Below, in pieces: positions 613-39,146 of a stretch of DNA of 43,746 nt. Position 1 is the first letter of the stretch. Each line of letters opens with the position of its first letter. This DNA comes from Nemertoderma westbladi (taxonomy: Eukaryota > Animalia > Xenacoelomorpha): the NCBI GenBank assembly GCA_032718475.1, contig JAUCBJ010006012.1, forward strand, positions 1 to 43,746, written 5' to 3'. The notes beneath the pieces were generated by a model, which was given only the letters and a program-made list of their open reading frames with translations, had not been told where the DNA came from and did not search any database. The position numbers and the translations under genes are program-made.

Positions 613-1325
613 AGGGTGATCTTCCACAGTAAAGCCCGTCCACTCTGTTTCCTAAAGGAATGCCTGTTCACCACCATGGGTGATCTTCCACAGTAAACCC
701 TTCCACTCTGTTTCCTAAAGGAATGCCTGTTCACCACCATGGGTGATCTTCCACAGTAAACCCTTCCACTCTGTTTCCTAAAGGAATGCCTGTTCACCAC
801 CATGGGTGATCTTCCACAGTAAACCCTTCCACTCTGTTTCCTAAAGGAATGCCTGTTCACCACCATGGGTGATCTTCCACAGTAAACCCTTCCACTCTGT
901 TTCCTAAAGGAATGCCTGTTCACCACCACGGGTGATCTTCCACAGTAAACCCTTCCACTCTCCTGTTCACCACCATGGGTGATCTTCCACAGTAAACCCG
1001 CCCACTCTATTTCATAAAGGAATGCCTGTTCACCACCATGGGTGATCTTCCACAGTAAACCCTTCCACCCTGTTTCCTAAAGGAATGCCTGTTCACCACC
1101 ACGGGTGATCTTCCACAGTAAACCCTTCCACTCTGTTTCCTAAAGGAATGCCTGTTCACCACCATGGGTGATCTTCCACAGTAAACCCTTCCACTCTGTT
1201 TCCTAAAGGAATGCCTGTTCACCACCATGGGTAATCTTCCACAGTAAACCCTTCCACTCTGTTTCCTAAAGGAATGCCTATTCACCACCATGGGTGATCC
1301 TGTGCAGTAAACCATTCCACTCTGT
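613..1325. repeat. 63-bp tandem repeat, about 11 copies, one with an internal deletion near 960
   Basis: Unit CATGGGTGATCTTCCACAGTAAACCCTTCCACTCTGTTTCCTAAAGGAATGCCTGTTCACCAC; it explains the 21-aa periodic ORFs 474-929 and 1007-1315. Confidence 0.97.
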
Positions 1326-1429
1326 TTTCCAAGTTACCATGGTTCTCATTTATCGACCGGCAAAGGATGAAAACCTTGGTAGAGCTAGTCTGCAACATTT
1401 AAAGTCCCGTACCAAAACAGTAAAAAAAA

Positions 1430-3975: not shown

Positions 3976-4838
3976 ACTGACTGCTCAATTGTACCCAACT
4001 AAAATTATAAAACTTTCAGGTCAAATGATAAATATTTCTGGCGCATTCAATATTAATCTCATTCTTTGTACATATTGACTAATGACGATGGATTTCTTAC
4101 CCAAACGTGTTTTATCGAAAACACTGTTTGTTAACCGTTTGATCTAAAAAGTAAAATTTGTTTTTGAATTTAAGACACTATTTTACACTATATTTTAAGA
4201 CACTACAGTAAGACATTATTTTAATTAAATTATATTGAAAAAAAAGAAAATAATGATAGTTTAGTTAGTTAGTTTAGTTTATTGACCGTACTTCTCAGGA
4301 AACGGAAACAAAATTAAACAGATTAGAGAACAGTCGATAATGGACCGTACAATAATACTATATAGACACATACGGTACTTTTACTTTGTCGAACGTCCTA
4401 AATAAACTAAGTATAATAATATTTATATTATATATTTGATAGAAATAAGAAATAAACCACTAAAACCAATGTTAAAAAGTTTTCCTTTTTCATACAAATG
4501 TAGGGCCGATATATGTGTTAAGTGTGATTACTATTATATATTCTAATATCTTGTCAATTGTTTAATATTCAATTACTAATTAATCAGAAAATAATTTCCA
4601 GTGTATGTGTATATCAATATAAAACTAGTAAAAAACTATACAATCATTTATAATTAAGATAATTAATTAATTGATTTACTTTAGCAAATCTGAACTTAAT
4701 AAATCGAACTCTTAATATTTTATTATTAGAATTATTATAACTATTAGATATTTATTTAATCATGTAGTAGTTTTTAAATCCTTCCACTGCTGCACTTATT
4801 TATAATGTTGATGATAATAATTTATATTTTATATTGAA

Positions 4839-7800
4839 ATGGAGTCGTCTAATAATGCTAGTCGAACGTCTTGTTATTGGAAGAACGACAATGTTAGTAT
4901 CCACACTCCGGCCCCCACAAACTCAAACACCTCATGGCTGCAAAGAATTCACCTTTTTGTACTCAAATGTTTCTACATCTACGGCGTGAAAGTTAATAAA
5001 GTTCCATCTTTCGTAGCAGTTTTGGGGGTATTGTTCCTAGCCAGTCTGTCTGTGGGTCTCAGACACTCCAAGATGGTCACCGATATCAATAAACTGTGGG
5101 TCCCTTCTGACGGCGATTTAAGCGACGAACTGGAATATTTAAAATCTAAACTGGGTTCGGGAGACCGAGTCATTAACGAGGTCATTATACAGGCGTCTAA
5201 ACGCGAGGGTGCAGACATACTGACCAGAGAAAGTCTCCTCCATCACCTAAAAGTAATGGATCGAGTTGCCAAGATCAGGGTTGATGCGTACGACCATTCC
5301 TGGTCATTAAGCGATGTTTGTTTTAAATCTAAAATCCCGGATTATTGGGGCGAGGCATTAAGTAAGTTTATTTCTGGCTCGAATTTGATGCCTTGTATTG
5401 TAATTAACCCGTTGGACTGCTTTTGGGAGGGTTCGTGGATTGCCGAGGCGGGTAGAGTGAGAGGGAGGCCTCTCACTGTCGACCTCAATTGGGTGACTCT
5501 AGACCCCCAGAAACAGCTGCAAACACTCGCTCCGCATTACCCTAAATTTTCTCGAATGTTGAAAGTGATGAAGATTGCTTCGGCATACACAAAGAAGCCA
5601 TGCATCGACCCTCACCATCATAAATGCTCCGATTGGAGTAAACAAAACTATAAATATCCCCTCGATGTGAAGGCGGTTTTAACTGGGGGTTGCAATACTT
5701 ACACCGAACTTATGCATTGGCCTGAGGAGTTACTAATGGGTGGGATAAGACGGTTCCCTCGGAACGGCAGCGTTGCCTCTGGGGAGGCCCTACAAAGCGT
5801 TATTATTCTTACCGGACCGCCGGTTTTCTACGAATTTGGAAAAAATAAATTTCCTGAACAACTTCGCGGTCAGTGGACTGTAGAACGAGCGGCACACGTG
5901 CTGCACAGATTTCGGACGAAAATCACGGAAGTTGTTAGATCGACGGCGAATGAAACGAAAGATAAATCATATGAATTCGTTTCGTTCAGCGAGACTTCTA
6001 TTAAAACGATTATGGACGACTTGTCGAGCACGAGTATCGATAAACTCATCGGTGGTTGCGGGATCCTCGTTGCGTTCGCCGTGCTCCGTAACGCGCGTTG
6101 CAACGCGGTAAAGTCCCGTTGCGGTGTCGCTATTGCCGGTATCCTGCTTGTAGGTCTCTCTATATTGGCGGGTCTGGGTCTCTGCGCCTGGCTCTCTATG
6201 CCATTCAACGCTACCACCTCTCAGGTCTTACCATTCTGCGCTTTCGCACTCGGCGTCAACCCAATATTCATTCAACTTTCAGTGTCTAACGAGATCCTCC
6301 GAGACAACCTAGTCCGTCGGAGGTACCACATCGCCCAGTTGCTCTGCTCCTGTGGACTCTCGCTATCTCTCGTCTCCTTCCAGATAGCGATCGGATTCGT
6401 AATCGCCTCAATAATACCCATCCCTGCCCTGAGGGATTTCACATTACAAGCCGCCATCCTCGTAATGTTCGATTATTTTTCCATCATATTTATTTACCCG
6501 GCGTTTATAGCCATCGATGTGAAAAGGTTTAAACGGAATTACATCGACTGTTTTTGCTGTATGAAAAGCGAATCGGCAATGGCGGCCGAAGTTCGCAAAG
6601 TTCGATACTCCAAGAGTAAAGCCTTATACCAAACGCAGTGCAGCCCCATAACTATTAACAGTGTCTCTACCATGAATGGAAAATCCGCTTCTAGAACTCA
6701 ACACTATGGGTCCCCCGGTCGAGCCTTACGTTCCCGCTCACCCCGTAGATCGCACTCACCCATGCGAGCCCCCATCCTAAGATCTATAGACTCCCCCCAC
6801 TCATCCCAATCCGCGTGTTCTAGAACTCACGCGATTATTCGCCCGCATTCTTCGAGTTCATACATACCTCCGTCTTCTAATAGGGGCAGCATAACGAAAC
6901 TCAATAACTCGAGAGTTAACATTGTAAAAGATCAGCCTCAACCCAAAAAAATAGCAAAATCTCAATCGGATATCGCGTTGCTCGCGAAGTACCAATGGCA
7001 AAGCAGTCAGAACTCTTGCAAGTCAGTACCAATAGCTCACACGCGCTCGTTGTGTTCCATACCCGAGGACAGACTAGAGGGCTCACCTGAATTAGTCGAG
7101 ATATCGAACGCGGTCACTCATAAGAATACAATTAGTTTAAATATTCGTATAACAAACTGGTACACCGGAATCTTACAGAATATCTACTGTAAGATTGCCG
7201 TGGTAGTTCTATCTATGTTTTTACTCTTTATTTCAATATACGGTGTGATTATAGTGGAGGATGGCCTTGAACTATCGGAGGTGATACCGGAAAATACAGA
7301 ATCTTATAAATTCGTTAAATACCAAACCAAATATTTCGGGTTAACTGACGTGCAAATTGTTACCAAAGGTAATTTCAATTACTCGTCTCCATGGGGGCAG
7401 GAATTATTATATGACTTATGGAACGAACTGCATCATATTGACCACTTTGTGAAAGACAATAACGGCGAGCTCGGCAACTTTTGGTTGCTTAATTTTCGCA
7501 AGTGGTTAACCACGCTACAGAATGCGTACGAGGAGGGGATGCGAACTGGATGCATTAAAACTTCGGGTTCCTGGTGCAAAAATGCCACATTCGATGTCAA
7601 CAACGCGAAACTAGCTCGTAAACTAATACAGAGCGCGAATCTCCCGAGAGGCAGTCGGCTGGTGATTACCGACAGGATTATTAACCCCGATGGTTTCTAT
7701 ACGTTTCTTACGGCTTGGACAATGATGGACCCAATGTACAGTATGAGCCAAGCCAGTCTCATACCGGAGCCTGCCCGATGGCAATCAGAGACGGAAAATT

Positions 7801-8963
7801 TCAGCGAATCAGAATTCGTTATCCCAATATCGAGTAACATCGAATTCTCACAGATTGTACTATTTGTAACGAATCTCACAGAAACTTCAAATTTTGTAAA
7901 ATTAATAGTGGACCTTCGAGGAATGTGCGACAAACTGAACGCACGAGGTTTGCCTGTATTCCCCGCGGGTCGACCAATTACATTCTGGGAGCAATACGTG
8001 CACCTTCGCTATTGGCTGTTCATGTCTTTAGCGTTCGAACTCGCGGCGACTACTTTATTCAACCTTATGAGTTTATACTCGTTGCGAGCCACGGGTCTAC
8101 TCCTCATTGTCCAGTCCACCACGCTGGTGGAATTATTCGGGATTCTCGGCTATATGGGTATCCAGTTATCTGCGGCGCCATCCATCCTGTTGATCGCGTC
8201 TGTCGGAATAAACGTGGACGCCGTTCTGCATCTCACTGTCCAATTCCTATCCCGCGAGGGTTCAAATGAAACTCGATTAAAAGTTGCAGCTCAAATGACT
8301 CTGTTTCCTATATTAGACGGCGCCGTTTCTACATTCCTAGGTATTTCTATTTTGGCGTTCAGTGAATATAGTTTCATTCGCAAATATTTCTTTTACGTAC
8401 TTTCCGCTTTAGTTTCACTAAACGTCTTTCAGGGACTTATAGTTTACCCGGTGTTGCTCCTGTTATTCGGACCCCGTAGTAAAGTCTTACGAGCGATCAG
8501 CGCTATCGAGTTCGTGCGTTCTCAGCAGCCACAGACTCAAAGCCATCCAAAGCGAGCCTCCAAACAACAGGTCTACTACTCCACGCGCAAGTCGGGGCCA
8601 CGGCCGCCTCACTCAGGCTACTCGAGTCAGCACGAGATATCAACGAGCACCAGCGTGTCTATAGGCTCGTTCTCCGGCTCCGACACCGAACACGATTTCT
8701 CCTCCACTGCGAGCGCTTGCAGCAGTATGACCGGCTCTCGGGTTATCATCAGTAGACCACCGAATAGACCCCCCAGACGTCTACGCGCTTTGTACCAGAA
8801 TCCCGCGCCCATTATTAGCCCTAGACAACAACCAATAGGCGATAAGCAGTTCAGCGTAGACTGTCAACAATCTATACAGCAGTCCACAGTACTGAATCGC
8901 AACCGCTCATCCACAAGAGTCACCGCCAAACACGTTTTTACATTTGTCCATCCGCAAGTTTAA
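4839..8963 (+). CDS. ptc: Patched (Hedgehog receptor family, 12-TM RND/SSD protein), 1374 aa, single-exon CDS, divergent
   Basis: Patched-specific motifs: KLWVPSDGDL..EL.Y, PCIVINPLDCFWEGS, KPC, LTGGC, HWPEELLMGG, ALQSVI, SSD region FNATTSQVLPF...IPIPALRDF, IDCFCC, DGLELSEVIP, IINPDGFYTFLTAW, FPAGRPITFWEQY.HLR, PILDGAVSTFLG..LAFSEY.FI.KYFF. Two 1+5 TM halves with large extracellular loops. Continuous ORF from ATG to TAA. Confidence 0.95.
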   Translation: MESSNNASRTSCYWKNDNVSIHTPAPTNSNTSWLQRIHLFVLKCFYIYGVKVNKVPSFVAVLGVLFLASLSVGLRHSKMVTDINKLWVPSDGDLSDELEYLKSKLGSGDRVINEVIIQASKREGADILTRESLLHHLKVMDRVAKIRVDAYDHSWSLSDVCFKSKIPDYWGEALSKFISGSNLMPCIVINPLDCFWEGSWIAEAGRVRGRPLTVDLNWVTLDPQKQLQTLAPHYPKFSRMLKVMKIASAYTKKPCIDPHHHKCSDWSKQNYKYPLDVKAVLTGGCNTYTELMHWPEELLMGGIRRFPRNGSVASGEALQSVIILTGPPVFYEFGKNKFPEQLRGQWTVERAAHVLHRFRTKITEVVRSTANETKDKSYEFVSFSETSIKTIMDDLSSTSIDKLIGGCGILVAFAVLRNARCNAVKSRCGVAIAGILLVGLSILAGLGLCAWLSMPFNATTSQVLPFCAFALGVNPIFIQLSVSNEILRDNLVRRRYHIAQLLCSCGLSLSLVSFQIAIGFVIASIIPIPALRDFTLQAAILVMFDYFSIIFIYPAFIAIDVKRFKRNYIDCFCCMKSESAMAAEVRKVRYSKSKALYQTQCSPITINSVSTMNGKSASRTQHYGSPGRALRSRSPRRSHSPMRAPILRSIDSPHSSQSACSRTHAIIRPHSSSSYIPPSSNRGSITKLNNSRVNIVKDQPQPKKIAKSQSDIALLAKYQWQSSQNSCKSVPIAHTRSLCSIPEDRLEGSPELVEISNAVTHKNTISLNIRITNWYTGILQNIYCKIAVVVLSMFLLFISIYGVIIVEDGLELSEVIPENTESYKFVKYQTKYFGLTDVQIVTKGNFNYSSPWGQELLYDLWNELHHIDHFVKDNNGELGNFWLLNFRKWLTTLQNAYEEGMRTGCIKTSGSWCKNATFDVNNAKLARKLIQSANLPRGSRLVITDRIINPDGFYTFLTAWTMMDPMYSMSQASLIPEPARWQSETENFSESEFVIPISSNIEFSQIVLFVTNLTETSNFVKLIVDLRGMCDKLNARGLPVFPAGRPITFWEQYVHLRYWLFMSLAFELAATTLFNLMSLYSLRATGLLLIVQSTTLVELFGILGYMGIQLSAAPSILLIASVGINVDAVLHLTVQFLSREGSNETRLKVAAQMTLFPILDGAVSTFLGISILAFSEYSFIRKYFFYVLSALVSLNVFQGLIVYPVLLLLFGPRSKVLRAISAIEFVRSQQPQTQSHPKRASKQQVYYSTRKSGPRPPHSGYSSQHEISTSTSVSIGSFSGSDTEHDFSSTASACSSMTGSRVIISRPPNRPPRRLRALYQNPAPIISPRQQPIGDKQFSVDCQQSIQQSTVLNRNRSSTRVTAKHVFTFVHPQV

Positions 8964-9829
8964 TTTCTTATTGAATTTATACTTTTTTAATTATTATAAT
9001 TATGCAATACTTTTGATGATGTAAGTTTTTGTTTACGTGTGTATATAATATGGTATTTATGTAGCACAAATAATAATTTGATACTTACATTATATGGCAG
9101 TAAATTTAAAATCTTCAGGAATAACATTTATTTACATTCAATATTTAATTAATAGTATGGAATTCGTTTCGATACTTCTCTAGTTTAATATAAGAGCTAA
9201 GCAGACAATAATATTTATCACCGAGTTATGAGATAACTATTGCGAAAAATTACTCTAAACGCTAACACTCAACTTTTTTCCTGGAGGAAAACCCAAGAAA
9301 ACAAATTTGCTGTGAAAAATGTATTCGTTATCTTCTTAAGTTAATACTATTACTAATATTTTATGAATCAAAGCAAAAAGCAATTTCCCTTTACCACATC
9401 CCAGCAGTTAATGTAGGAAAGACAACTGAAAATTCTGTACAGCTTCTTAATTAATAGTTAGTAAAAAATAATTTGGAAATTTTTTTCCTTGCTTAATAAT
9501 TGAATATTTTAATTCACAAGAATTTAATTATTTGTCGAAATTACCCTGGAAATCTAACCGTAGGCTGCGTTATCGCAACATAAAATGAAAAATTAAAAAA
9601 AAATTAGTAAAAATAATAACAGTTTTGATAACCGTCCGGTTATTAAACCCAAGCGACAGCACAAGTAGATCGTTGGTTGAGATTTATTGCGATAATTGTT
9701 ATATTACATTACTCGTTTGTTATTCATTAATTTTTTTAATAAAAATACATTTTTTTATGATTATCAGATTTTATTTATTTTCACTTAAAAACAGTTAATA
9801 TAATTATTATTTATTACATTAAAGACTTT

Positions 9830-13494: not shown

Positions 13495-14602
13495 AAAAGT
13501 TTCTCCGTATGAGGGCGTCAGCAATAAGTTGCTGGACACACTCAGAAACATTTGCGCAACAAAAGTTTATGTGTGGGGAGGAGTCAGCAATACGTTGCTG
13601 GACACACTCAGAAACATTGCGCAACAAAAGTTTATGTGTGTGGGGAGGAGTCAGCAATACGTTGCTGGACACACTCAGAAACATTGCGCAACAAAAGTTT
13701 ATGTGTGTGGGGAGGAGTCACCAATACGTTGCTGGACACATTCGAAACATTGCGCAACAAAAGGTTCTGTGTGTGAGGGAGTCAGCAATACGTTGCTGGA
13801 CACACTCAGAAACATTGCGCAACAAAAGTTTATGTGTGTGGGGAGGAGTCAGCAATACGTTGCTGGACACACTCAGAAACATTGCGCAACAAAAGTTTAT
13901 GTGTGTGGGGAGGAGTCACCAATACGTTGCTGGACACATTCGAAACATTGCGCAACAAAAGGTTCTGTGTGTGAGGGAGTCAGCAATACGTTGCTGGACA
14001 CACTCAGAAACATTGCGCAACAAAAGTTTATGTGTGTGGGGAGGAGTCAGCAATACGTTGCTGGACACACTCGGAAACATTGCGCAACAAAAGTTTATGT
14101 GTGTGGGGAGGAGCCAGCAATACGTTGCTGGACACACTCGGAAATATTGCGCAACAAAAGGTTCTGTGTGTGAGGGAGTCAGCAATACGTTGCTGGACAC
14201 ACTCAGAAACATTGCGCAACAAAAGTTTATGTGTGTGGGGAGGAGTCAGCAATACGTTGCTGGACACACTCAGAAACATTGCGCAACAAAAGTTTATGTG
14301 TGTGGGGAGGAGTCACCAATACGTTGCTGGACACACTCGGAAACATTGCGCAACAAAAGTTTATGTGTGTGGGGAGGAGCCAGCAATACGTTGCTGGACA
14401 CACTCGGAAATATTGCGCAACAAAAGGTTCTGTGTGTGAGGGAGTCAGCAATACGTTGCTGGACACACTCAGAAACATTGCGCAACAAAAGTTTATGTGT
14501 GTGGGGAGGAGTCATCAATACGTTGCTGGACACACTCAGAAACATTGCGCAACAAAAGTTTATGTGTGTGGGGAGGAGCCAGCAATACGTTGCTGGACAC
14601 TC
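13495..14602. repeat. About 64-67-bp satellite, left block (about 16 units, about 198-bp trimeric higher-order repeat)
   Basis: Unit GTCAGCAATACGTTGCTGGACACACTCAGAAACATTGCGCAACAAAAGTTTATGTGTGTGGGGAGGA; the 66-aa periodicity of ORF 13509-14669 reflects the trimer. Confidence 0.97.
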
Positions 14603-16384
14603 GGGTACTCGGTTTTTTTTAACTTCAGAGACAGTCGATTGTCGGCCAGCCATTCAGATATTTTGTTGAGTTCACTATTTGAAGATTCAATTAATAATTC
14701 AATATTGGAATCGTTATGCAGCAAGGTGTTGTCATCTGCAAAAAGGGTTGTCATAAATTTGGATACTAACGGCAGGTCATTTATATATAGTAAAAATAAT
14801 AACGGCGAAAACACCGATCCTTGTACAGTACCACATTTTAAAGATAGTGGGTCAGAAATTGTATCATTTATCACTACGACCTGCTTACGTTTAGTTAGAA
14901 AGCTTTTTATTAACGCATTAGGAGTTCCACGAATACCATAATTTTCGAGTTTTTTAATTAATATACTGTGGTCCAGCGTATCAAACGCCTTTTTCAGGTC
15001 AATGTATATCGCGCAGCTGGTTTCTTTCGAATCAAGAAAAGTACGAATTTTCTCAGTCACAGTTAAAATAGCGCAGTAAGTTGAAACTTTCTTTCGAAAT
15101 CCAAACTGGCATTTGGTGAGAATTGAAAAGTAATCCAGGTAAGAAATAAGCTGGTCGTAGAGTATTTTTTCGTACAATTTTGTGAACACAGGCAAAATGG
15201 ATATGGGCCGGTAGTTATTGGCATCAAGAGGCTCACCCCCTTTGTAGCTTGCAATAACCTTAGACATCTTCAAACTAGCAGGGAATTCACCTGTAGTAAC
15301 ATATAAGTTTATTAAGTACGTTAAGTGACGCGCTAATGGCTCCGCAACCAACTTAATAAGCGCGACAGGGAATGAATCGTTTGTTGAAGTATTGGGATTT
15401 AGTTGAAGGAGGTTGTAGTGCGTTTCAGCTACAGATGTTTCAATGAGGCAAAAAGAATTTACTCGAGATTTCATATGTCTAGTGGGGTTGCGATTTGAGC
15501 GGGGTATTAGATTCGCCAGTTTAGATCCAATGGAAGAGAAGTGGGAATTTAGTTGCGCTGCTGTCTCTGATGTATTTACTGTGGTTTTAAACCCGTCTCT
15601 CGTCTGGTAATTAATTTTCAATGGGGCCGAAGTTTTTTTTCCCTTATTCATAGCAGAGTTAATTACCTTCCATGTATTCGCCATATTTCCCTTAGCGTTA
15701 TCAAATTGCAAGGAAAAGTTTGATTTCTCAGCTGCTTGCAAGGTCGAGGTTAGCACATTTTTATACCGTTTGTATTGTGAAACATTTTCATTGGACGGTT
15801 TTTTTAATTGTTTAATATATAATTTGTTTTTTTTCACAATGCACTTAAGTAACTTTTCATTTAGCCATGGTTTTTTTGGCAAATTCTTTTTATGTATTAT
15901 TTTCTTTGGTAAATGTTTGTTGCATAACCCTTCAAAATAGTTATAAAAAGTGTCAAATTTTATTTTAGATGGCACATGCTGAGACATGTAAGATGAAAAC
16001 GATGGAGATAAGAAATCTGCTATAAAGTCTGCCTTTTTAAAATTTGAGTAGTCATACGAGAGTCTAGTAAGTGGATCTTCAAAAAAAACGGAATAATTAT
16101 ATGAAAATTGACAAAGGTGGCTAAGTGGTCAGTCGTCCCCAACTCAGCCAAACATACCCCGGACGTATTTATGGAGGTACATATATTTGTTAAAATATGA
16201 TCCAGTATTGAATCTGCACCAAAAACAATTCGGGTCGCTTGTTTAATGAGTTGAGAAAACCCATAGGAATGCACTAGTTGTTGGTACTGTCTGGTTTGTG
16301 ATGTATTTTTCTTTACATTAACGTTAAAATCCCCCGTAATAACTACATCACAATGAAGTGAGGATAACATAAAAGTAAAAAGAA
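14603..16384 (-). mobile_element. Internal fragment of a CR1-group (Crack/L2/Daphne-like) LINE ORF2: C-terminal APE endonuclease plus reverse transcriptase, truncated at both ends, one frameshift
   Basis: EN motifs VITGDFN, SILDHILTN, TDHLATF; linker KPWLN, TWKVIN; RT motifs NYRPISILP, QFGFR, IDLKKAFDTLDH..L..KL..YGIRG, GTVQGSVFSPLLFLLYINDLP, LFADD, WLADNRLSL..KKTEY. The two ORFs join if the frame shifts near the A8 run at 16081-16088. Confidence 0.92.
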
Positions 16385-17920
16385 CAAAGGTTTCTGTGTG
16401 TGGGGGGAGTCAGCAATAAGTTGCTGGACACACTCGGAAACATTGCGAAACAAAAGTTTCTGCGGGGAGTCTGCAATAAGTTGCTGGACACACTCAGAAA
16501 CATTGCGCAACAAAAGTTTCTGTGTGTGGGGGGAGTCAGCAATAAGTTGCTGGACACACTCAGAAACATTGCGCAACAAAAGTTTATGTGTGTGGGGGGA
16601 GTCAGCAATAAGTTGCTGGACACACTCGGAAACATTGCGAAACAAAAGTTTCTGTGAGGAGTCTGCAATAAGTTGCTGGACACACTCAGAAACATTGCGC
16701 AACAAAAGTTTATGTGTGTGGGGGGAGTCAGCAATAAGTTGCTGGACACACTCGGAAACATTGCGAAACAAAAGTTTCTGTGGGGAGTCTGCAATAAGTT
16801 GCTGGACACACTCAGAAACATTGTGCAACAAAAGTTTCTGTGTGTGGGGGGAGTCAGCAATAAGTTGCTGGACACACTCAGAAACATTTCGCAACAAAAG
16901 TTTATGTGTGTGGGGGGAGTCAGCAATAAGTTGCTGGACACACTCGGAAACATTGCGAAACAAAAGTTTCTGTGGGGAGTCTGCAATAAGTTGCTGGACA
17001 CACTCAGAAACATTGCGCAACAAAAGTTTCTGTGTGTGGGGGGAGTCAGCAATAAGTTGCTGGACACACTCAGAAACATTGCGCAACAAAAGTTTCTGTG
17101 TGTGGGGGAGTCTGCAATAAGTTGCTGGACACACTCAGAAACATTGAGCAACATAAGTTTCTGTGTGGGGAGGAGTCAGCAATACGTTGCTGGACACACT
17201 CAGAAACATTGTGCAACAAACGTTTATGTGTGTGGGGGAGTCAGCAATAAGTTGCTGGACACACTCAGAAACATTGCGAAACAAAAGTTTCTGTCTGTGG
17301 GGGAGTCAGCAATACGTTGCTGGACACACTCGGAAACATTGCGAAACAAAAGTTTCTGTGGGGAGTCTGCAATAAGTTGCTGGACACACTCAGAAACATT
17401 GCGCAACAAAAATTTCTGTGTGTGGGGGGAGTCAGCAATAAGTTGCTGGACACACTCAGAAACATTGCGCAACAAAAGTGTCTGTGTGTGGCGGGAGTCA
17501 GCAATAAGTTGCTGGACACACTCGGAAACATTGCGAAACAAAAGTTTCTGTGGGGAGTCTGCAATAAGTTGCTGGACACACTCAGAAACATTGCGCAACA
17601 AAAGTTTCTGTGTGTGGGGGGAGTCAGCAATAAGTTGCTGGACACACTCAGAAACATTGCGCAACAAAAGTTTATGTGTGTGGGGAGGAGTCAGCAATAC
17701 GTTGCTGGACACACTCGGAAATATTGCGCAACAAAAGTTTCTGTGTGTGGGGGGAGTCAGCAATAAGTTGCTGGACACACTCGAAACATTGCGTTGCAAA
17801 AGGTACTGTGTGTGAGGGAGTCAGCAATACGTTGCTGGACACACTCTAGATGTGAGGGTGTCAGCAATACGTTGCTGGACACACTCGGAAATATTGCGCA
17901 ACAAAAGGTTCTGTGTGTGA
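16385..17920. repeat. About 60-67-bp satellite, right block (about 24 units, about 192-bp trimeric higher-order repeat)
   Basis: Same family as the left block but mostly CAGCAATAAGTTGCTG; 66+66+60-bp unit pattern (64-aa periodicity in ORF 16673-17815). Confidence 0.97.
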
Positions 17921-22600: not shown

Positions 22601-23800
22601 CATTCCAATTGTGGATTGAAAAAAAATATTTTTGTTAAGCCAGCATAGCATCTCAATGTGCAGCTTCAATGCACAGGCCGATTATAATAAGTAGGCCTAG
22701 TGGTATATTACTAAAGCGAAACCGGAAACACACTTGGCTTTGTATCTGATTCCATGGAGAATGGCTCCAAGAGAGGGACACGTCGTCAACCTAGAAATGG
22801 AACTCGAATTGACACTAACCCGGGAGATGTTCAAAAGTAGGTAAATATGTATCATACTCAGTACTCAGGGTGTCAATCTATGGATTTCTGAACCCCAAAA
22901 TCCAGAGTATTGTTGATGATAATGCCGTTGGTCTATGCTACGAAGCACAGCAAAATGTATTATTACTTTGGAAAAATTATGAGATATAACATATATTTTC
23001 GTGTAAATTATAAACTGTAGCATATTTGCTCCAAATGTAGGAAGGCTAGATTACTCGAGTTTAAACGAAGTTCAATATTAGCTCTTGAGCATCCCATTCC
23101 TAGACCCCACTACGAAACTGAACCTTGACCCGCCCACCCTGTAGAGACTATGGATGGAGTGGTTTTAACGTTCCTACTGTAGCAAGAATTAAACATTTTC
23201 GTTTTAGATTAGTAGAGTTTGATCGAGGTTCATTCAGTATTAGCCAATCACGGCATCGCATTTCTATCTGACCTCAAAAATTTGGGAGTTAACTTAGATT
23301 TAGCGTATCTAGCAGTGTTGAAAAAGATTGGCAAAATCGTTATAGCCATTTTGAATTTGATCACTCACTCACTCAACAAACACAGATTCAACTCAGTGCT
23401 GACTTGTAACAGCAAGCAACCTTCGATTCCTAATAATTGAACTCCCTTTGGTCCAATTTATTTATTCATTAACATCTGCGGGTCACAGATTCTTTATATT
23501 AATCAACTCATGCCAATTAATTCATATAGCTGAACGTAGCCACTAAATAGTTGTCGAAATACGCAAGGATTATATCACTACCTAACATAACGTTATCTTG
23601 ATTAACCAATCGTACCAGGGCGGGTTGCGAGTCTGTTGTACGCCCGATACTCGGGTTATTATTTTTCAACTACAATTGTACTGTCAAAGATACAGTAGGC
23701 CTATATGGGGCTATACTTGCATTTCCCTTCAATGCTTTCTATATGACTTATTCACTTTGACATTTATCACAATTTTAAAATTATTTTATGGGACTTCAGT

Positions 23801-26800
23801 ATATACTATTATTTTATTATTATTATTATAGCTTCCTTATATACTATTATTTTATTATCATTATAGCTTCCTTATATACTATTATTTTATTATTATTATA
23901 GCCTCCTTATATACTATTATTTTATTATTATTATAGCCTCCTTATATACTATTATTTTATTATTATTATAGCTTCCTTATATACTATTATTTTATTATTA
24001 TTATAGCCTCCTTATATACTATTATTTTATTATTATTATAGCCTCCTTATATACTATTATTTTATTATTATTATAGCTTCCTTATATACTATTATTTTAT
24101 TATTATTATAGCTTCCTTATTATACTATTATTTTATTATTATTATAGCTTCCTTATATACTATTATTTTATTATTATTATAGCCTCCTTATATACTATTA
24201 TTTTATTATTATTATAGCCTCCTTATATACTATTATTTTATTATTATTATAGCTTCCTTATATACTATTATTTTATTATTATTATAGCCTCCTTATATAC
24301 TATTATTTTATTATTATTATAGCCTCCTTATATACTATTATTTTATTATTATTATAGCCTCCTTATATACTATTATTTTATTATTATTATAGCCTCCTTA
24401 TATACTATTATTTTATTATTATTATAGCCTCCTTATATACTATTATTTTATTATTATTATAGCCTCCTTATATACTATTATTTTATTATTATTATAGCTT
24501 CCTTATATACTATTATTTTATTATTATTATAGCTTCCTTATATACTATTATTTTATTATTATTATAGCTTCCTTATATACTATTATTTTATTATTATTAT
24601 AGCCTCCTTATATACTATTATTTTATTATTATTATAGCTTCCTTATATACTATTATTTTATTATTATTATAGCTTCCTTATATACTATTATTTTATTATT
24701 ATTATAGCTTCCTTATATACTATTATTTTATTATTATTATAGCTTCCTTATATACTATTATTTTATTATTATTATAGCCTCCTTATATACTATTATTTTA
24801 TTATTATTATAGCCTCCTTATATACTATTATTGTATTATTATTATAGCCTCCTTATATACTATTATTTTATTATTATTATAGCCTCCTTATATACTATTA
24901 TTTTATTATTATTATAGCCTCCTTATATACTATTATTTTATTATTATTATAGCCTCCTTATATACTATTATTTTATTATTATTATAGCCTCCTTATATAC
25001 TATTATTTTATTATTATTATAGCCTCCTTATATACTATTATTTTATTATTATTATAGCCTCCTTATATACTATTATTTTATTATTATTATAGCCTCCTTA
25101 TATACTATTATTTTATTATTATTATAGCCTCCTTATATACTATTATTTTATTATTATTATAGCCTCCTTATATACTATTATTTTATTATTATTATAGCTT
25201 CCTTATATACTATTATTTTATTATTATTATAGCTTCCTTATATACTATTATTTTATTATTATTATAGCTTCCTTATATACTATTATTTTATTATTATTAT
25301 AGCTTCCTTATATACTATTATTTTATTATTATTATAGCCTCCTTATATACTATTATTTTATTATTATTATAGCCTCCTTATATACTATTATTGTATTATT
25401 ATTATAGCCTCCTTATATACTATTATTTTATTATTATTATAGCCTCCTTATATACTATTATTTTATTATTATTATAGCTTCCTTATATACTATTATTTTA
25501 TTATTATTATAGCCTCCTTATATACTATTATTTTATTATTATTATAGCCTCCTTATATACTATTATTGTATTATTATTATAGCCTCCTTATATACTATTA
25601 TTTTATTATTATTATAGCCTCCTTATATACTATTATTTTATTATTATTATAGCCTCCTTATATACTATTATTTTATTATTATTATAGCCTCCTTATATAC
25701 TATTATTTTATTATTATTATAGCCTCCTTATATACTATTATTATATTATTATTATAGCTTCCTTATTATACTATTATTTTATTATTATTATAGCTTCCTT
25801 ATATACTATTATTTTATTATTATTATAGCCTCCTTATATACTATTATTTTATTATTATTATAGCCTCCTTATATACTATTATTTTATTATTATTATAGCC
25901 TCCTTATATACTATTATTTTATTATTATAGCCTCCTTATATACTATTATTTTATTATTATTATAGCTTCCTTATATACTATTATTTTATTATTATTATAG
26001 CCTCCTTATATACTATTATTTTATTATTATTATAGCCTCCTTATATACTATTATTTTATTATTATTATAGCCTCCTTATATACTATTATTTTATTATTAT
26101 TATAGCTTCCTTATATACTATTATTTTATTATTATTATAGCCTCCTTATATACTATTATTTTATTATTATTATAGCTTCCTTATATACTATTATTTTATT
26201 ATTATTATAGCCTCCTTATATACTATTATTTTATTATTATTATAGCCTCCTTATATACTATTATTTTATTATTATTATAGCCTCCTTATATACTATTATT
26301 TTATTATTATTATAGCTTCCGTATATACTATTATTTTATTATTATTATAGCTTCCTTATATACTATTATTTTATTATTATTATAGCTTCCTTATATACTA
26401 TTATTTTATTATTATTATAGCTTCCTTATATACTATTATTTTATTATTATTATAGCCTCCTTATATACTATTATTTTATTATTATTATAGCCTCCTTATA
26501 GCCTCCTTATATACTATTATTTTATTATTATTATAGCTTCCTTATATACTATTATTTTATTATTATTATAGCTTCCTTATATACTATTATTTTATTATTA
26601 TTATAGCTTCCTTATATACTATTATTTTATTATTATTATAGCCTTCTTATAGCCTCCTTATATACCATTATTTTATTATTATTATAGCTTCCTTATATAC
26701 TATTATTTTATTATTATTATAGCTTCCTTATATACTATTATTTTATTATTATTATAGCCTCCTTATATACTATTATTTTATTATTATTATAGCCTTCTTA

Positions 26801-27060
26801 TATACTATTATTTTATTATTATTATAGCCTCCTTATATACTATTATTTTATTATTATTATAGCCTCCTTATATACTATTATTTTATTATTATTATAGCCT
26901 TCTTATATACTATTATTTTATTATTATTATAGCCTTCTTATATACTATTATTTTATTATTATTATAGCCTTCTTATATACTATTATTTTATTATTATTAT
27001 AGCCTCCTTATATACTATTATTTTATTATTATTATAGCCTTCTTATAGCCTCCTTATATA
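23801..27060. repeat. 35-bp AT-rich satellite, about 93 copies
   Basis: Unit AGCYTCCTTATATACTATTATTTTATTATTATTAT; the main variants are GCTTCC, GCCTCC and GCCTTC. Confidence 0.98.
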
Positions 27061-32155: not shown

Positions 32156-34519
32156 GGGTCGTTCTCACAAAAAGTGGCCAAACTTTTATGTCAAAATGTC
32201 CATGCATTCGCACGGTTATATTTCCAAACGACACAGATTTAACCCCATGAACCTATATACCAATCGGAAGAGCGGAAATCTGCTCATATTTCAGCAAATT
32301 TTCAACAGATTCCATTCACAACCTAGAGAATGACACCATTTCAAATATCGAAAATGCATGTTTTTTGAAATGTCACATTGAATTATTTTGAAATATTTGG
32401 CTTCTGAGCTAAAGCAATGAAAGCAAAGGTTCCACATACCATACATCAAAATAAAGCAAATTTAATGCTCTTTCACATACTATTGGTGGTTTTCAACCGA
32501 AGCTACTCACATTTTATATATTTACTATTTACTAACAATTAATTACGCCGTCACTAGGATTTTGTCCACCATGTAACGCTCGTTTTTATGACATGGTTTT
32601 TTTATATTTATTCACAACATCTCCAAGTGAGATATTTCTAAACGGCGATTTATTTAGCTATCAGCAGGTAAAAAAATTATAAGAATTCGTTCATTAGAAC
32701 TCGAGCGTTGTGCGAAAACGTAAATCTACATAAAATACCGTCATTAGGAATGTCCTCAATGTAACGCTACTTTGAATAGCGATAACTTTTGCTTTACTAA
32801 TCATATCGACACCATTGAGGGCTCATATGAAAGAGCAATCGCAGATCTATCGAATCACATATTTGATTTTAATATAGTTTCAAAACAGACTATAGTCAAC
32901 GCCATGCTAATGAAAAATGTCTTCAATGTCCATCATGTAACGCATGTAACGCTGTCACAATCAATAGCGTTACACTTGAGACATGTCCATCATGTAACGT
33001 AGTTGGGCCTGAACATACCTAGTAGTACGAGTGGCGTTTCTTTTTACAAATTAGGCAGTCAGGGTCAAATTAACAATAGTCGATGGTTTCTGGTTTTCAG
33101 TATTTAGTATAAACTACTGTAGTAGTAATATTATCTGTAGTAAGTAATATTGTATCTGTCTGTAGTCTGTATTACCTAGTACTACCTAAAGGGTTTAGGA
33201 AAAGCTCATGAGTTTGTTTACCTTTCTTTATTTCGGTTCTAAAACAGTACTTCTTAATCGTCATGCAATTACAATTGTCAAACGGAATTAAGCGTGTTGT
33301 GTCCGGTAAGAACTTCTCGATTGAATTTAGTGATGGTGTTACACGTGAAGGACTTAGAGATTAAGTTAGTGATGGCGTTACACGTGAAGGACATAAAGTT
33401 AGTGATGGCGTTACACGTGAAGGACTTAGAGATTAAGTTAGTGATGGCGTTACACGTGAAGGACTTAGTTACACGTGAAGGACTTAGAGATTAAGTTAGT
33501 GATGGCGTTACACGTGAAGGACTTAGAGATTAAGTTAGTGATGGCGTTACACGTGAAGGACTTAGAGATTAAGTTAGTGATGGCGTTACACGTGAAGGAC
33601 TTAGTTACACGTGAAGGACTTAGAGATTAAGTTAGTGATGGCGTTACACGTGAAGGACTTAGAGATTAAGTTAGTGATGGCGTTACACGTGAAGGACTTA
33701 GAGATTAAGTTAGTGATGGCGTTACACGTGAAGGACTTAGTTACACGTGAAGGACTTAGAGATTAAGTTAGTGATGGGATGGCGTTACACGTGAAGGACT
33801 TAGAGATTAAGTTAGTGATGGCGTTACACGTGAAGGACTTAGTTACACGTGAAGGACTTAGAGATTACGTTAGTGATGGGATGGCGTTACACGTGAAGGA
33901 CTTAGAGATTAAGTTAGTGATGGCGTTACACGTGAAGGACTTAGTTACACGTGAAGGACTTAGAGATTACGTTAGTGATGGTTTTAAGGATTCCGTTAAC
34001 TATTTTGTACAATTAGTGTTACAATAGTATGTATATTCATATTGTATGTATGCAATAATACAAACTAAATAATTTGCTGATTTGAAAAATATTATTTTCA
34101 GCCATTGGGTCGATAAATAAATCCGTAAAAAACCCGTATAAATATAAAATAAATCCGTACATGACATTAAAGTGACTGTTGAATTTCTGGTATATATTTT
34201 AAATGTCAAATCCTGGATACTGATTGGCTAACAAGTAGCGTTACATTCGAGACAACGAGTTAGATTGTGGGCGTTCTGTGAAATGAAGGCTTCTGATTGG
34301 CTAACAAGTAGCGTTACACCAAGGACAAAATGTTACATTGTGGACATTAGTTTTTCGCGAATAAAACCTTACGACTTTACTAAAAAAAACGGCCCACTAG
34401 TGTATTCGAAATCGCCTCATCGAGAGCTCTCGAAATATGTATATATTTATATGGTTTTGACAAAAAAAAATTTGACAATTTTTTCTCAAAATTTTGGCCA
34501 CTTTTTGTGAGAACAACCC
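32156..34519. mobile_element. Sola2-like non-autonomous DNA transposon (2364 bp) nested in the hAT-like element
   Basis: TIRs GGGTCGTTCTCACAAAAAGTGGCCAAA and TTTGGCCACTTTTTGTGAGAACAACCC (26/27); 4-bp TSD AATA (32152-32155, 34520-34523). A GRG terminus with a 4-bp TSD fits Sola2. Internal TGTCC-N4-TGTAACGCT motifs occur in both orientations. Confidence 0.85.
33327..33981. repeat. 39-bp satellite with a 19-bp sub-repeat forming 136-bp then 102-bp higher-order units
   Basis: Unit AGTTAGTGATGGCGTTACACGTGAAGGACTTAGAGATTA; the variant junction GGACTTAGTTACACG occurs at 33461, 33597, 33733, 33835 and 33937. Confidence 0.95.
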
Positions 34520-36989
34520 AATAAAGCAATGATGCAATGTAAGCCCTGCCGTCTCGGGGTAGTTTATAATGACTAATAAACTTCTAAATCTCTCCTGAAT
34601 TCTAATAGTAACATATACTGAAAACTGACTACTCTTAACAGGGGTAGGGGGTTAAAGGTGCCAGACAGGTAAGTATGGTGATAGCAAGCAGCCTTGGAAG
34701 TTGGAACTATCCAATATCTATCTGAGGCACCAATTAACTGCAGTAAGCCTATCAGGAATCTATAGACATCTACAAAATGATTGGACCAAAGGCGACCTTT
34801 ACTAACATTAGTAAAGGTCGCATTGGGTTGGACACTGACTCATCCCTCCACTACTACTACTACTACTGTACTATGGCTATCACCCATTGAAGTCTCTGTG
34901 CTGTCAATCACTTATTCCTTTAGAAGTTTATGTAGGTACTTTACTGGGATTGATACATATTAGATTGGTCGCTGGCTGAGGCTAGTCCAGATATAATATA
35001 TTAGGAAGGCACTCTGGCTGTGACTGGGCGGCAAATTGATTCAACTGGGCGGCACTTGTGCCGCCTAGTGGCAAAGTTAAACGAGGCTATGATAGAAAAT
35101 GTTTGGGACGGTATACTTTATATTTGTTACATGCTATTGATTCTGCAGCAAGAGAACTGCCACAAAGTGGTACCTAATTAGTGACTGCGTTGAGGGAGAG
35201 TCGGACCCTCAGAAAATAGCAAACAAGTTTGCTGATGTGTATAACATTCTATATAACCAAAACGAGGGTAATGTAAATGGGGTTGAATTTTCGGTAATTG
35301 AAAGTAAAATTGCAGAGAAAATGGACTTCGAGTCTAAAATTTATATTAGTAGAGATTAGGTGCAATAAGTCTGATGTTGAGTTTTCTTTTGATTCAGACT
35401 GATTAATACACGGTGGATCACATTTGGAAGATAATTTGTGTACATGTTTAATTCCTTTTTATTGCATGGTCTAATTTCAAGGTGTTTATTGTCAGTTGCC
35501 TTTGTTCCGCTTATTAAGGACAAGGCTGGTGACTATAGGATAACTATAGGGCTATTATGCCATATCATCATTATTATTAAAACTATTTGAGTGGGTTATG
35601 ATATTATCAGAGGGTCATAAATTAAAGTTAGATGACTTACAGTTTGGTTTCATGTCTAACTCAGTACTACTATGTGTACATGGACTGCTATAGTGAGGTG
35701 GTGAATTATTATATGCGGAATAATACTTCAATATAGTTGTCTGATCGATTTTACAAAGGCTTTTGATTTGGTTCAGTGGAAACAATTATTTTTAGAATTA
35801 ATTAAAAAGGGTTTCAATGTGCTTTTTTTACGTTGTCTATTTTTCATTTATCGGAACCAAGCCGGATTTGCACGTTGGAATAATTATAAGTCAGATGTTT
35901 TTTCTGTTTCGAATGGTGTAAGACAGGGCTCGATAATTTCTCCGACCCTGTTCTGTATTGTTATAAATATATTAATTTTGCGACTTAGGGATTCAAAGAT
36001 TGGTTGTCATATTGGTTTGCACTATTTTGGGTGTTTAGTATATGCAGATGATGTGCTTTTACTTTGTCCATCGGTTAAAGGTTTACAATTTATGGTGGAA
36101 ATTTGTTCAAATTTTTGTAAGGAAACTTAAGATTAGTAGGCCTATTAATTCTAATGTTATGAAATGTAAAACCAAGTGTATTCCATTTGGTTTTACCTGG
36201 GATCCTCCAGCTGCTCGGATCGTAGTAAATTGAATAGTTTTACCTTGGGTTGAACAAGCTAAACATCTTGGTGTCACCTTGTTTTTTAAAGGTGATTTCT
36301 CGAGGGACATACTACAAAAAAGAGGGACTTTTGGAAAATTATCTGGGCTGACGAATGAATTTCATTTTGCTTCACCTCTGCAATTGCTCCGACATACAGA
36401 GATCTCTTGCTATTAGTTTTTATAGCGAAATACTATGGGATCTCTGGTCACCCGAATGTAATAAGATTTACACGGTTGGAATTGTAACGTCAGAATTGTG
36501 TGCGGGCTACCCTTTAAATGCTCATCGTTACATAGTTGAAGGTATTGTTGATTTTCCTCACCCAAAAATCATGTTGCTTAAGCGGATTGTTATATTTGCG
36601 AAACGTCTTATTTGTTTTAATAAACTACCTATACGTTTTTTGGGTACACTATTTTTCAAGGATTCCCGTTGTTTATTGGGCCACAATTTGCGGTGCATTG
36701 CTAATGAATGTTGTTTATCTGACATTGAGATGCTTTCTCCGGCAGAAGTATCTAAATTACATTATGCTGTGCTTAACGAAGATGATATTTATAAGATTAG
36801 TCTCTGTCGCGAATTGATTTCGGTTATTTACGGTGAACAATTTGTTAGTGGTTTCACCAAGACTTATATTATTTCATTATTAAATTTTGTCCCATCTTCC
36901 TAATGTTACGCTTGTGCTTTACTGTAGTTAGTTCTCTCTTTTTTTGTGTGTTTTGTGCCACTACATTTAATTATATCTGTAATGTGCAT

Positions 36990-38186: not shown

Positions 38187-39146
38187 ATGGCTGATGTGGG
38201 AGGAGTTCAGCAGTACCTCGATCACATAACCCACCACTTCGAGACGCATAATAAAACCCGAGATATCCGTAACCACGACGCCAAGGTTCACTCGGTATCC
38301 TGGAGCTGCGACGGACGCCGACTCGCCTCGGGTTCCTTTGATAAATCCGTATGCGTGTTCGCCTTGGACAGAGACAGACTACTGCGCGAGAAGACCTTCC
38401 ACGGACACACCGGCAGTGTAGACCAGCTGGTCTGGCACCCCAGCCACTCAGACTCACTCGCAAGCGCTTCCGCTGATAAAACAGTTCGAATATTCGATAC
38501 TCGGACCCAAAAAAGTGTCCATTGTATCACTACAAAGGGAGAAAATATTAACATCAGCTGGAGTCCTGACGGTAATACAATCGCAGTTGGAAACAAAGAA
38601 GATCTAGTGTCTCTTATAGACGCGAGGAAAGCGGTAGTCCGATCGGATCAGCAGTTTAAGTACGAAGTTAATGAGATCGCGTTTAATAAGGAATGCGATC
38701 AGTTGTACCTAACTACCGGTTCCGGGACTATTAATGTTGTAAATATAGCGGAGAATAAGGTTGTTAATTCGTTGAAGGGTCACACTGCCTCCTGTATCTG
38801 TATAGACTTTGATCCCAGTGGTTCTTACTTTGCCGTCGGCTCAGCAGACGCCCTTGTGTCCATCTGGGACGTGTCCGAACTGGCTTGCATCCGGATGCTC
38901 TCCAGACTGGACTGGCCTATCCGGACTCTCAGTTTCAGCTACGACGGGCAGCTGCTCGCCAGCGGTTCAGAGGATCTTGTCATTGATGTCGCCTTGGTTA
39001 ACACTGGGGATAAAGTAGCCGAGGTGCCGTGCGAGAGTCCTACGTTGACCGTTGCCTGGCACCCGAAGAAACTCTTGCTCGCTTATGCGTGCGATGATAA
39101 AGACAGAGATACAGGTACCATAAAACTATTCGGCTTCGAAAACTGA
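38187..39146 (+). CDS. THOC3: THO complex subunit 3 (Tex1), WD40 protein of the TREX complex, 319 aa, intronless
   Basis: HDAKVHSVSWSCDGRRLASGSFDKS, GHTGSVDQLVWHP, TKGENINISWSPDG..IAVGNKED, FKYEVNEI, CICIDFDP.G.YFAVGSADALVS.WD, RLDWPIRTLSFSYDG.LLASGSEDL.ID, VAWHPK..LLAYACDDKD, GTIKLFG. First ATG is at 38187 (the ORF track starts at an upstream TTG). Confidence 0.97.
   Translation: MADVGGVQQYLDHITHHFETHNKTRDIRNHDAKVHSVSWSCDGRRLASGSFDKSVCVFALDRDRLLREKTFHGHTGSVDQLVWHPSHSDSLASASADKTVRIFDTRTQKSVHCITTKGENINISWSPDGNTIAVGNKEDLVSLIDARKAVVRSDQQFKYEVNEIAFNKECDQLYLTTGSGTINVVNIAENKVVNSLKGHTASCICIDFDPSGSYFAVGSADALVSIWDVSELACIRMLSRLDWPIRTLSFSYDGQLLASGSEDLVIDVALVNTGDKVAEVPCESPTLTVAWHPKKLLLAYACDDKDRDTGTIKLFGFEN

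What the first reader, a model, noticed from the sequence alone, without database searches (positions are those of the whole stretch)
6228..8222. Patched has lost the TM4 acidic transport motif: GxxxDD reads AxxxNP, and the TM10 glutamate is aspartate
Seen: TM4 reads LPFCAFALGVNPIF (A470, N474, P475; nt 6246-6263) where PTCH1 reads LPFLALGVGVDDVF; TM10 reads ASVGINVD (D1127, nt 8217) versus ASVGIGVE. Established: human G509/D513/D514/E1095 (mouse D499/D500/E1081) form the RND-type intramembrane triad needed for cation-coupled sterol transport and Smoothened repression; the mouse NNQ mutant is strongly impaired and G509V and D513Y are Gorlin-syndrome alleles. Yet this ORF is intact over 1374 codons and keeps extracellular cysteines and SSD motifs. 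Inference: a natural transport-dead pseudo-transporter (Hedgehog sink or decoy, or Smo-independent receptor), or a Patched with rewired ion coupling, pointing to a non-canonical Hedgehog system in this lineage.
Basis: partly seen in the sequence, partly recalled or inferred. Interest (0 to 1): 0.8.

Follow-up and report, generated by a model that had tools for sequence, protein, structure and literature searches.

The report
Patched with a rebuilt ion site
This animal's intact Hedgehog-receptor gene Patched lacks two acidic residues that vertebrate Patched needs to pump cholesterol, but similar losses occur in many arthropod copies and it has gained a new acidic residue predicted to lie nearby, so it is likely a working receptor with a rebuilt ion site rather than a dead one.

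Summary
Observation confirmed. The 1374-codon ORF (4839-8963) is a true Patched. TM4 reads ALGVNP (A470/N474/P475 = human G509/D513/D514) and TM10 reads GINVD. It is not an assembly error: four runs from three studies show the same codons, and 23 of 25 coding variants are synonymous. One run ends in a non-templated poly(A).

The state is not unique. Among 35 arthropod, tardigrade and flatworm-clade Patched representatives, none keeps all three acids and 14 have no TM4 acid. Drosophila keeps one acid; mite Patched shows nearly this gene's state. 'Motif lost, so transport-dead and non-canonical Hedgehog' therefore does not follow.

Peculiar to this protein are Pro475 (1 of 148) and a new Asp545 in TM6 (0 of 71 other animal Patched; NPC1-like), inferred to sit near Asp1127. 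Mapped on DISP1's three sodium sites, it loses the dispensable site, keeps one as Asn with both hydroxyl partners, and remodels the third.

Best reading: a working receptor with a simplified, rebuilt ion site (0.5). A second ptc, and hh or smo, could not be checked because no genome is held. Look-ups found no earlier scan note on this.

The parts
4839..8963 (+). Single-exon patched gene, 1374 aa, 12-TM RND fold with two extracellular domains
   Evidence: model mean pLDDT 82.7; target-normalised TM-score 0.93 to PTCH1 6rvd_B
6246..6263 (+). TM4 motif ALGVNP (A470-P475) in place of GxxxDD
   Evidence: same letters in 4 of 4 runs; Pro at this column in 1 of 148 aligned proteins
8205..8219 (+). 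TM10 motif GINVD (G1123-D1127); Asp for Glu, the only triad acid left
6471..6473 (+). Asp545 in TM6, a new intramembrane acid; candidate replacement carboxylate (inferred)
   Evidence: acid in 0 of 71 other animal Patched (Asn in 40) and 8 of 55 outgroup rows, including both NPC1-like rows checked; on the conserved face of TM6
6372..6386 (+). TM5 ion-partner positions V512, S513, Q515, I516 (canonical T, S, S/N, N)
   Evidence: mapped by offset from DISP1 sites I and III
8328..8333 (+). TM11 S1164/T1165, retained hydroxyl partners of the first TM4 Asp site (DISP1 site II)
8037..8039 (+). Glu1067 in mid-TM8, a second unusual intramembrane acid; orientation unclear
   Evidence: acid in 1 of 67 other animal Patched; 131 degrees from the polar face, 35 from the conserved face
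5085..5099 (+). Sterol-conduit residues I83, L86, W87 (mouse V111, L114, W115)
   Evidence: role from passages
6516..6518 (+). Asp560, the conserved Asp at the end of TM6 in the sterol-sensing domain, retained
   Evidence: Asp in 58 of 70 others
6734..6775 (+). 42-base in-frame deletion allele in the disordered Ser/Arg-rich cytoplasmic loop
   Evidence: one contig of run X4; frame stays open; pLDDT under 50 there
8910..8960 (+). C-terminal RVTAK motif, matching the VTAT/VTAS motif of other Patched tails
   Evidence: found in 5 of 6 comparison proteins
4767..9124 (+). Likely transcript span, ending in a non-templated poly(A)
   Evidence: run X2 contigs cover this span; a 22-A loose end follows 9124 where the genome is not A-rich; the run is not on record as RNA

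Best explanation
The gene is an intact Patched under purifying selection that has lost both TM4 aspartates and gained an aspartate in TM6, and it likely still works as the Hedgehog receptor that represses Smoothened by moving sterol, with a predicted simpler, rebuilt cation site. Shown: identity as Patched, motif changes, selection, retained conduit and SSD residues. Inferred: in the three-site frame of DISP1, site III (Pro475, Val512) is lost, site II survives as Asn474 with Ser1164/Thr1165, and site I is held by Asp1127, helped by the new Asp545 now that the TM5 Asn is gone. Fewer ions per cycle would then drive sterol export, and Hedgehog binding to the extracellular domains would block it. 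Ion binding, transport, Hedgehog binding and Smo repression are all untested.
For: 23 synonymous against 2 conservative non-synonymous variants among 25, pN/pS about 0.03, binomial p 1e-12. PTCH1 fold across both halves. 81 of 109 invariant extracellular-domain columns are kept, as are conduit residues and SSD Pro/Asp. The full triad is absent in 35 of 35 arthropod/tardigrade/flatworm-clade representatives, yet insect Ptc regulates Smo. Near-identical states occur in Varroa (SFGGNS/GLGME), Tropilaelaps (GIGRSG/GVGMD) and Steinernema (GIGVNN/GIGVE). In DISP1 single Asp-to-Asn changes do not inactivate and site III is dispensable (10.1101/2020.09.05.284026 section 6). Asp545 lies 14 residues after L531 (human L570) and Asp1127 14 after the V1081 position; L570C/V1081C was designed as a disulphide pair (PMC9949057 section 22; offsets).
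Against: Drosophila keeps the first TM4 Asp, so it is no exact precedent, and I found no functional test of any Patched lacking both TM4 acids. Loss of the first Asp inactivates C. elegans PTC-3 (D697A), PTCH2 (D469A) and PTCH1 (D513Y). Two sites are changed at once and site I has lost a TM5 ligand, which DISP1 single-site data do not cover. TM2-TM5 keep only 16 of 32 invariant columns against 125 of 172 elsewhere (Fisher p 0.02), so the sterol-sensing region itself has drifted.
Confidence: 0.5

Rival explanations
1. It still represses Smoothened but without ion coupling, moving sterol down its gradient or binding it, as proposed for PTCHD1 and NPC1; Asp545 would be structural.
For: 12 of 35 representatives in the arthropod/tardigrade/flatworm clade have no triad acid at all, including a tardigrade and a mite protein named Patched. 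PTCHD1 lacks both motifs, binds cholesterol and is proposed to work down-gradient (PMC9917202 passages). Asp545 matches the NPC1-like state.
Against: Asp1127, His1131, Asp1160, Ser1164 and Thr1165 are all kept, unlike in most arthropod rows. [quoted passage not shown] PTCH1 export is calculated to need an energy input.
Confidence: 0.2
2. It is a transport-dead Hedgehog sink or decoy, or a partner that borrows ion flux from a canonical paralogue.
For: The mouse NNQ mutant binds ShhN but cannot repress Smo. Extracellular domains are better kept than TM2-TM5. The single exon would fit a retrocopy. PTCH1/PTCH2 complementation in trans is reported. Varroa has two Patched-like proteins.
Against: Two other genes in the window are also single-exon, so this may be the genome's style. 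No similar coding copy at 80% or more appeared in 4 runs, though a diverged paralogue would be missed. The protein has no [PL]PxY endocytic motif (weak). The known decoy PTR-18 needs its GxxxD motifs. Both Varroa proteins found lack TM4 acids.
Confidence: 0.2
3. The lineage has lost Smoothened or Hedgehog, and this Patched has a Smo-independent lipid or membrane role, as in nematodes.
For: C. elegans keeps essential ptc genes without hh or smo. The host's genes are fast-evolving.
Against: Nematode PTC-3 needs the TM4 Asp, and 9 of 10 nematode-clade rows keep at least one TM4 acid. Nothing here shows pathway loss.
Confidence: 0.08
4. Assembly error or decaying pseudogene.
For: Run X1 may be the source of the assembly.
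Against: The same codons stand in runs of two further studies; at least 6 base changes are needed; pN/pS about 0.03; poly(A) end.
Confidence: 0.02

Closest known systems
Vertebrate PTCH1/PTCH2 and hemichordate/anthozoan Patched (TIGR00918; PF02460, PF12349)
   Same: Fold, 12 TM helices, two extracellular domains, conduit residues, SSD Pro and Asp, TM11 LDGAVST, C-terminal VTA motif; about 34-35% identity.
   Different: These keep D, D and E (17 of the 18 other complete rows of that group; Hydra is the exception). Here N, P and D, with T551 to Val, H520 to Ser and TM6 Asn to Asp; single exon.
Arthropod and tardigrade Patched with eroded triads (Drosophila GLGVDH/GMMLC; Nasonia GLGIHD/GISVH; Varroa SFGGNS/GLGME; Tropilaelaps GIGRSG/GVGMD; Paramacrobiotus VTHLQH/GVAWR)
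   Same: One or no triad acid. The mites share 'no TM4 acid, TM10 acid kept', and Varroa also lost the motif Gly.
   Different: None has Pro at the second Asp or Asp in TM6, and they have lost Asp at the D1128 position, which this protein keeps. A clade of the query with these rows is only weakly rejected (p-AU 0.04), so convergence is likely but not shown.
DISP1 three-Na+-site transporter
   Same: Same TM4/TM10 acids with TM5/TM11 hydroxyl partners, stated to be conserved in PTCH1; gives the frame for reading the changes.
   Different: DISP1 releases Hedgehog and is a distant relative (about 10-11% identity).
NPC1, PTCHD1 and C. elegans DAF-6/PTR proteins with partial or no RND motifs
   Same: Functional family members without the full motif; NPC1-like rows carry Asp at the Asp545 column.
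   Different: These are other subfamilies. The query scores 788 bits on the Patched model against 176 on the NPC1 model and falls in the animal Patched clade.

Membership tests
True Patched (Ptc/PTCH) | Sequence and tree placement with Ptc rather than PTR/NPC1/Disp | tested here: met
   Best hits are all Patched; inside the 21-row animal Patched group, 100/99 against 3 unnamed outgroup rows. TIGR00918 E 1e-236, but 788 bits is below its curated cut-off of 1120.
True Patched (Ptc/PTCH) | 12-TM RND fold with SSD and two extracellular domains | tested here: met
True Patched (Ptc/PTCH) | Sterol-conduit and SSD key residues | tested here: met
   I83/L86/W87, V815, P465, D560; TM2-TM5 otherwise more eroded
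True Patched (Ptc/PTCH) | Binds Hedgehog and represses Smoothened | not testable with these tools
   No ligand or Smo sequence of this animal is available; needs assays.
Vertebrate-type ion-coupled Patched | TM4 GxxxDD | tested here: not met
   ALGVNP
Vertebrate-type ion-coupled Patched | TM10 GxxxD/E | tested here: met
   GINVD fits the published GxxxD/E consensus, so Glu to Asp alone is no deviation
Vertebrate-type ion-coupled Patched | TM5 and TM11 hydroxyl/amide ion ligands | tested here: inconclusive
   S1164, T1165 and S513 kept; V512 and I516 lost; Q515 changed; mapping by offset
Decoy or pseudo-transporter paralogue | A canonical paralogue in the same genome, and no transport activity | not testable with these tools
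   No whole genome held; no copy at 80% or more in 4 runs
Processed pseudogene | Stops, frameshifts or neutral evolution | tested here: not met

The most novel reading that the evidence does not exclude
A natural Patched in which the ion-neutralising carboxylate has moved from TM4 to TM6 (an NPC1-like Asp545 beside Asp1127), independently of arthropods. It and the many arthropod Patched proteins with one or no triad acid would show that the 'essential' triad is only one of several ways to power Smoothened repression.
Probability: 0.3. Interest if true: 0.65.

Novelty: new variant of a known kind. Interest (0 to 1): 0.4.

Why it matters
How Patched is energised is still argued (Na+ versus K+, and how many ions), and the papers read treat the TM4/TM10 acids as conserved and essential. 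Natural Patched proteins kept by selection with one or no triad acid are ready-made tests of that model. This one adds a specific prediction (Asp545 with Asp1127) that two point mutants can test. The wider point, that most arthropod Patched representatives lack the triad, was not stated in the passages I read. It may be in subscription papers: Myers et al. 2017 was not held, and supplements and alignment figures were not seen.

Tried and rejected
Whole-genome search for a second ptc, hh, smo, disp, sufu and gli: impossible, no genome is held. The scan's notes on this genome gave 0 of 79 for Hedgehog words and nothing relevant by sequence, words or place, which says nothing on gene content.

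No RNA holder listed. Runs of two other organisms held next to none of the words and were never laid, so whether relatives share the motif is open. That X2 has no cover on the flanks is only a hint.

No close relative was found: the best identities were about 42%; the search of shorter proteins gave 1 hit of 1309 candidates, a GLGIHD protein; the metagenome scan confirmed 0 of 329 stretches.

Lineage: the Patched tree leaves the query unplaced. The THOC3 tree puts it in a 20-row group, all of whose named rows are protostomes (100/98), but flags its long branch and unsettled bootstrap. A guess that the host is a xenacoelomorph got no support or refutation from listings and passages. A 32-row mixture-model tree did not finish. 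FastTree's pairing with Hydra vanished in IQ-TREE.

Glu to Asp in TM10 was rejected as a sign of damage, since it fits GxxxD/E. The model keeps TM4 helical through Pro475, so no helix break is claimed. No complex was predicted, as no Hedgehog of this animal was at hand.
Full report
Observation. The window carries one long ORF at 4839-8963 (+), 1374 aa. Pfam finds the sterol-sensing and Patched domains. Its best solved relative is mouse PTCH1 (E 3.5e-184), and the alignment has no gap through TM4, so A470, N474 and P475 face G495, D499 and D500 (human G509, D513, D514), and D1127 faces the TM10 Glu. The best named hit is Ptychodera Patched at 34%. The AlphaFold model of residues 30-1224 has mean pLDDT 82.7 with one long disordered loop and matches PTCH1 structures with target-normalised TM-scores of 0.88-0.93, ahead of NPC1-type proteins.

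Is it real and alive? Eight runs were listed and four hold the stretch. All four were laid; X1 may be the assembly's source and X3/X4 are one sample, which leaves two independent studies. None differs at the TM4 or TM10 codons or at Asp545. The canonical motifs are at least 6 base changes away. Of the 25 single-base differences inside the coding sequence, 23 are synonymous and 2 are Ile/Val swaps in the disordered loop (pN/pS about 0.03, p 1e-12). The only coding indel is an in-frame 42-base deletion in that loop. Contigs of run X2 cover 4767-9124 and end in 22 A's that the genome does not template. This looks like an mRNA, but the run is not on record as RNA, so expression is likely rather than shown.

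Is it unusual? I aligned 185 proteins (the query, 36 hits and 148 further hits) to a profile. After dropping rows under 60% filled and 11 near-duplicate isoforms, 127 went into a tree; 72 fell in the animal Patched clade, 64 of them with letters at all motif columns. In the deuterostome, cnidarian and mollusc rows 17 of 19 keep all three acids, the exceptions being the query and Hydra. In nematode-clade rows 5 of 10 do. In the clade holding the named arthropods, tardigrade and flatworms, 0 of 35 do, 14 have no TM4 acid and 12 have none at all. Names show these include annotated patched genes: Drosophila montana GLGVDH/GMMLC, Nasonia GLGIHD/GISVH, Harmonia GLSIRE/IIISR, Cloeon AIGISD/AFCVQ, Varroa SFGGNS/GLGME, Tropilaelaps GIGRSG/GVGMD, Fragariocoptes CIGFHT/GISII, Paramacrobiotus VTHLQH/GVAWR, Dugesia GIGLDE/GLGFR. 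Caveats: representatives at 50% identity over-weight divergent lineages, many rows are unnamed, some may be paralogues or bad gene models, and columns can slip in very divergent rows. Insect Patched still regulates Smoothened (10.1101/352443, passages), so an eroded triad does not by itself mean a dead transporter. Drosophila does keep the first TM4 Asp, however, and I saw no functional test of a Patched with no TM4 acid.

What is special here. Pro at the second Asp occurs in 1 of 148 rows with a letter there. TM6 carries Asp545 where 0 of 71 other animal Patched have an acid (40 have Asn) but 8 of 55 outgroup rows do, both NPC1-like rows among them; the column lies on the conserved face of the helix. 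TM8 carries Glu1067 (1 of 67 others), of unclear orientation. TM2-TM5 keep 16 of 32 columns invariant in 17 canonical proteins, against 125 of 172 elsewhere (p 0.02). Conduit residues, SSD Pro465 and Asp560, His1131, Asp1160 and the C-terminal VTA motif are kept.

Mechanism. The DISP1 structure paper (10.1101/2020.09.05.284026; passages and section 6) defines three Na+ sites, each one acid plus two hydroxyl residues, and states that they are conserved in PTCH1. Single Asp-to-Asn changes were tolerated, site III was dispensable, and sites I and II were needed. Mapped by offset, the query has site III as Pro475/Val512/Ser513 (lost), site II as Asn474/Ser1164/Thr1165 (acid neutralised, both hydroxyls kept) and site I as Asp1127/Gln515/Ile516 (acid kept, partners changed). 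In PTCH1, L570 and V1081 were paired for a disulphide (PMC9949057, section 22). Fourteen residues further down each helix lie the positions of Asp545 and Asp1127, so the two acids likely face each other at similar depth. I infer a simpler site built on Asp1127 and Asp545 that still couples ion flow to sterol movement.

Against this: loss of the first TM4 Asp inactivates C. elegans PTC-3 (PMC3078328, passages) and PTCH2, and cripples PTCH1 (PMC9949057 and 10.1101/2023.08.08.549832, passages). The NNQ mutant binds ligand without repressing Smo. The uncoupled reading (PMC9917202, passages) and the decoy reading therefore stay open, although the known decoy PTR-18 needs its motifs (PMC8104386, passages). 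No genome is held, so paralogues and the rest of the pathway are unknown.

Lineage. The host is an animal with fast-evolving, single-exon genes in this window. Patched is unplaced within animals; holding it with the arthropod, tardigrade and flatworm rows is weakly rejected (p-AU 0.04 under LG+G4 with long branches). THOC3 groups with protostomes but on a flagged long branch. A mollusc Patched keeps the full triad. An independent loss is likely, not shown.

Literature. Of ten searches, six bore on the motif. The passages read describe it as conserved, and I saw no statement that arthropod Patched lacks it. PMC8654371, PMC9695228, PMC5055395 and PMC10565955 were read in passages and added nothing on this point. 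Myers et al. 2017 was not held; figures and supplements were not seen. G509V as a Gorlin allele is recalled.

Verdict. A real, selected, probably expressed Patched with a remodelled ion site: a new variant of a known kind. Interest 0.4.

Noticed in passing
proteins P0163, P0012, P0162, P0172, P0174, P0177, P0179, P0184: Most arthropod and tardigrade Patched representatives lack two or all three of the triad acids said to be essential, in different combinations; I did not find this stated in the passages read.
   Followed up: partly
window 38187-39146 (+): Single-exon THOC3 gene (319 aa, Pfam E 2e-117), 66% to a limpet protein.
   Followed up: partly
window 42412-43323 (-): Single-exon 303-aa ORF with a weak NUDIX match (E 6e-4, below Pfam's cut-off); NUDT22-like from recall.
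   Followed up: no
window 14560-16370 (-): Reverse-transcriptase ORF (RVT_1, E 1e-26) with an upstream fragment, likely a LINE inserted into a 66-67 bp satellite that runs 13517-14600 and 16383-17846.
   Followed up: no
window 23800-27047: 35-bp AT-rich tandem array, 92 copies at 96% identity, with strong strand skew.
   Followed up: no
window 614-1327 and 33319-33981: Further tandem arrays of 63 bp and of a variable unit of about 39 bp.
   Followed up: no
window 6700-6800 (+): Ser/Arg-rich stretch in the Patched cytoplasmic loop; both non-synonymous variants and the in-frame deletion lie in this loop.
   Followed up: partly
P0170 (Hydra), P0178 (Steinernema): Hydra Patched reads GFGMDN/GVGVS and Steinernema reads GIGVNN/GIGVE, further natural triad losses outside arthropods.
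   Followed up: no
window 36355-36903 (+): 182-aa ORF with no Pfam match.
   Followed up: no
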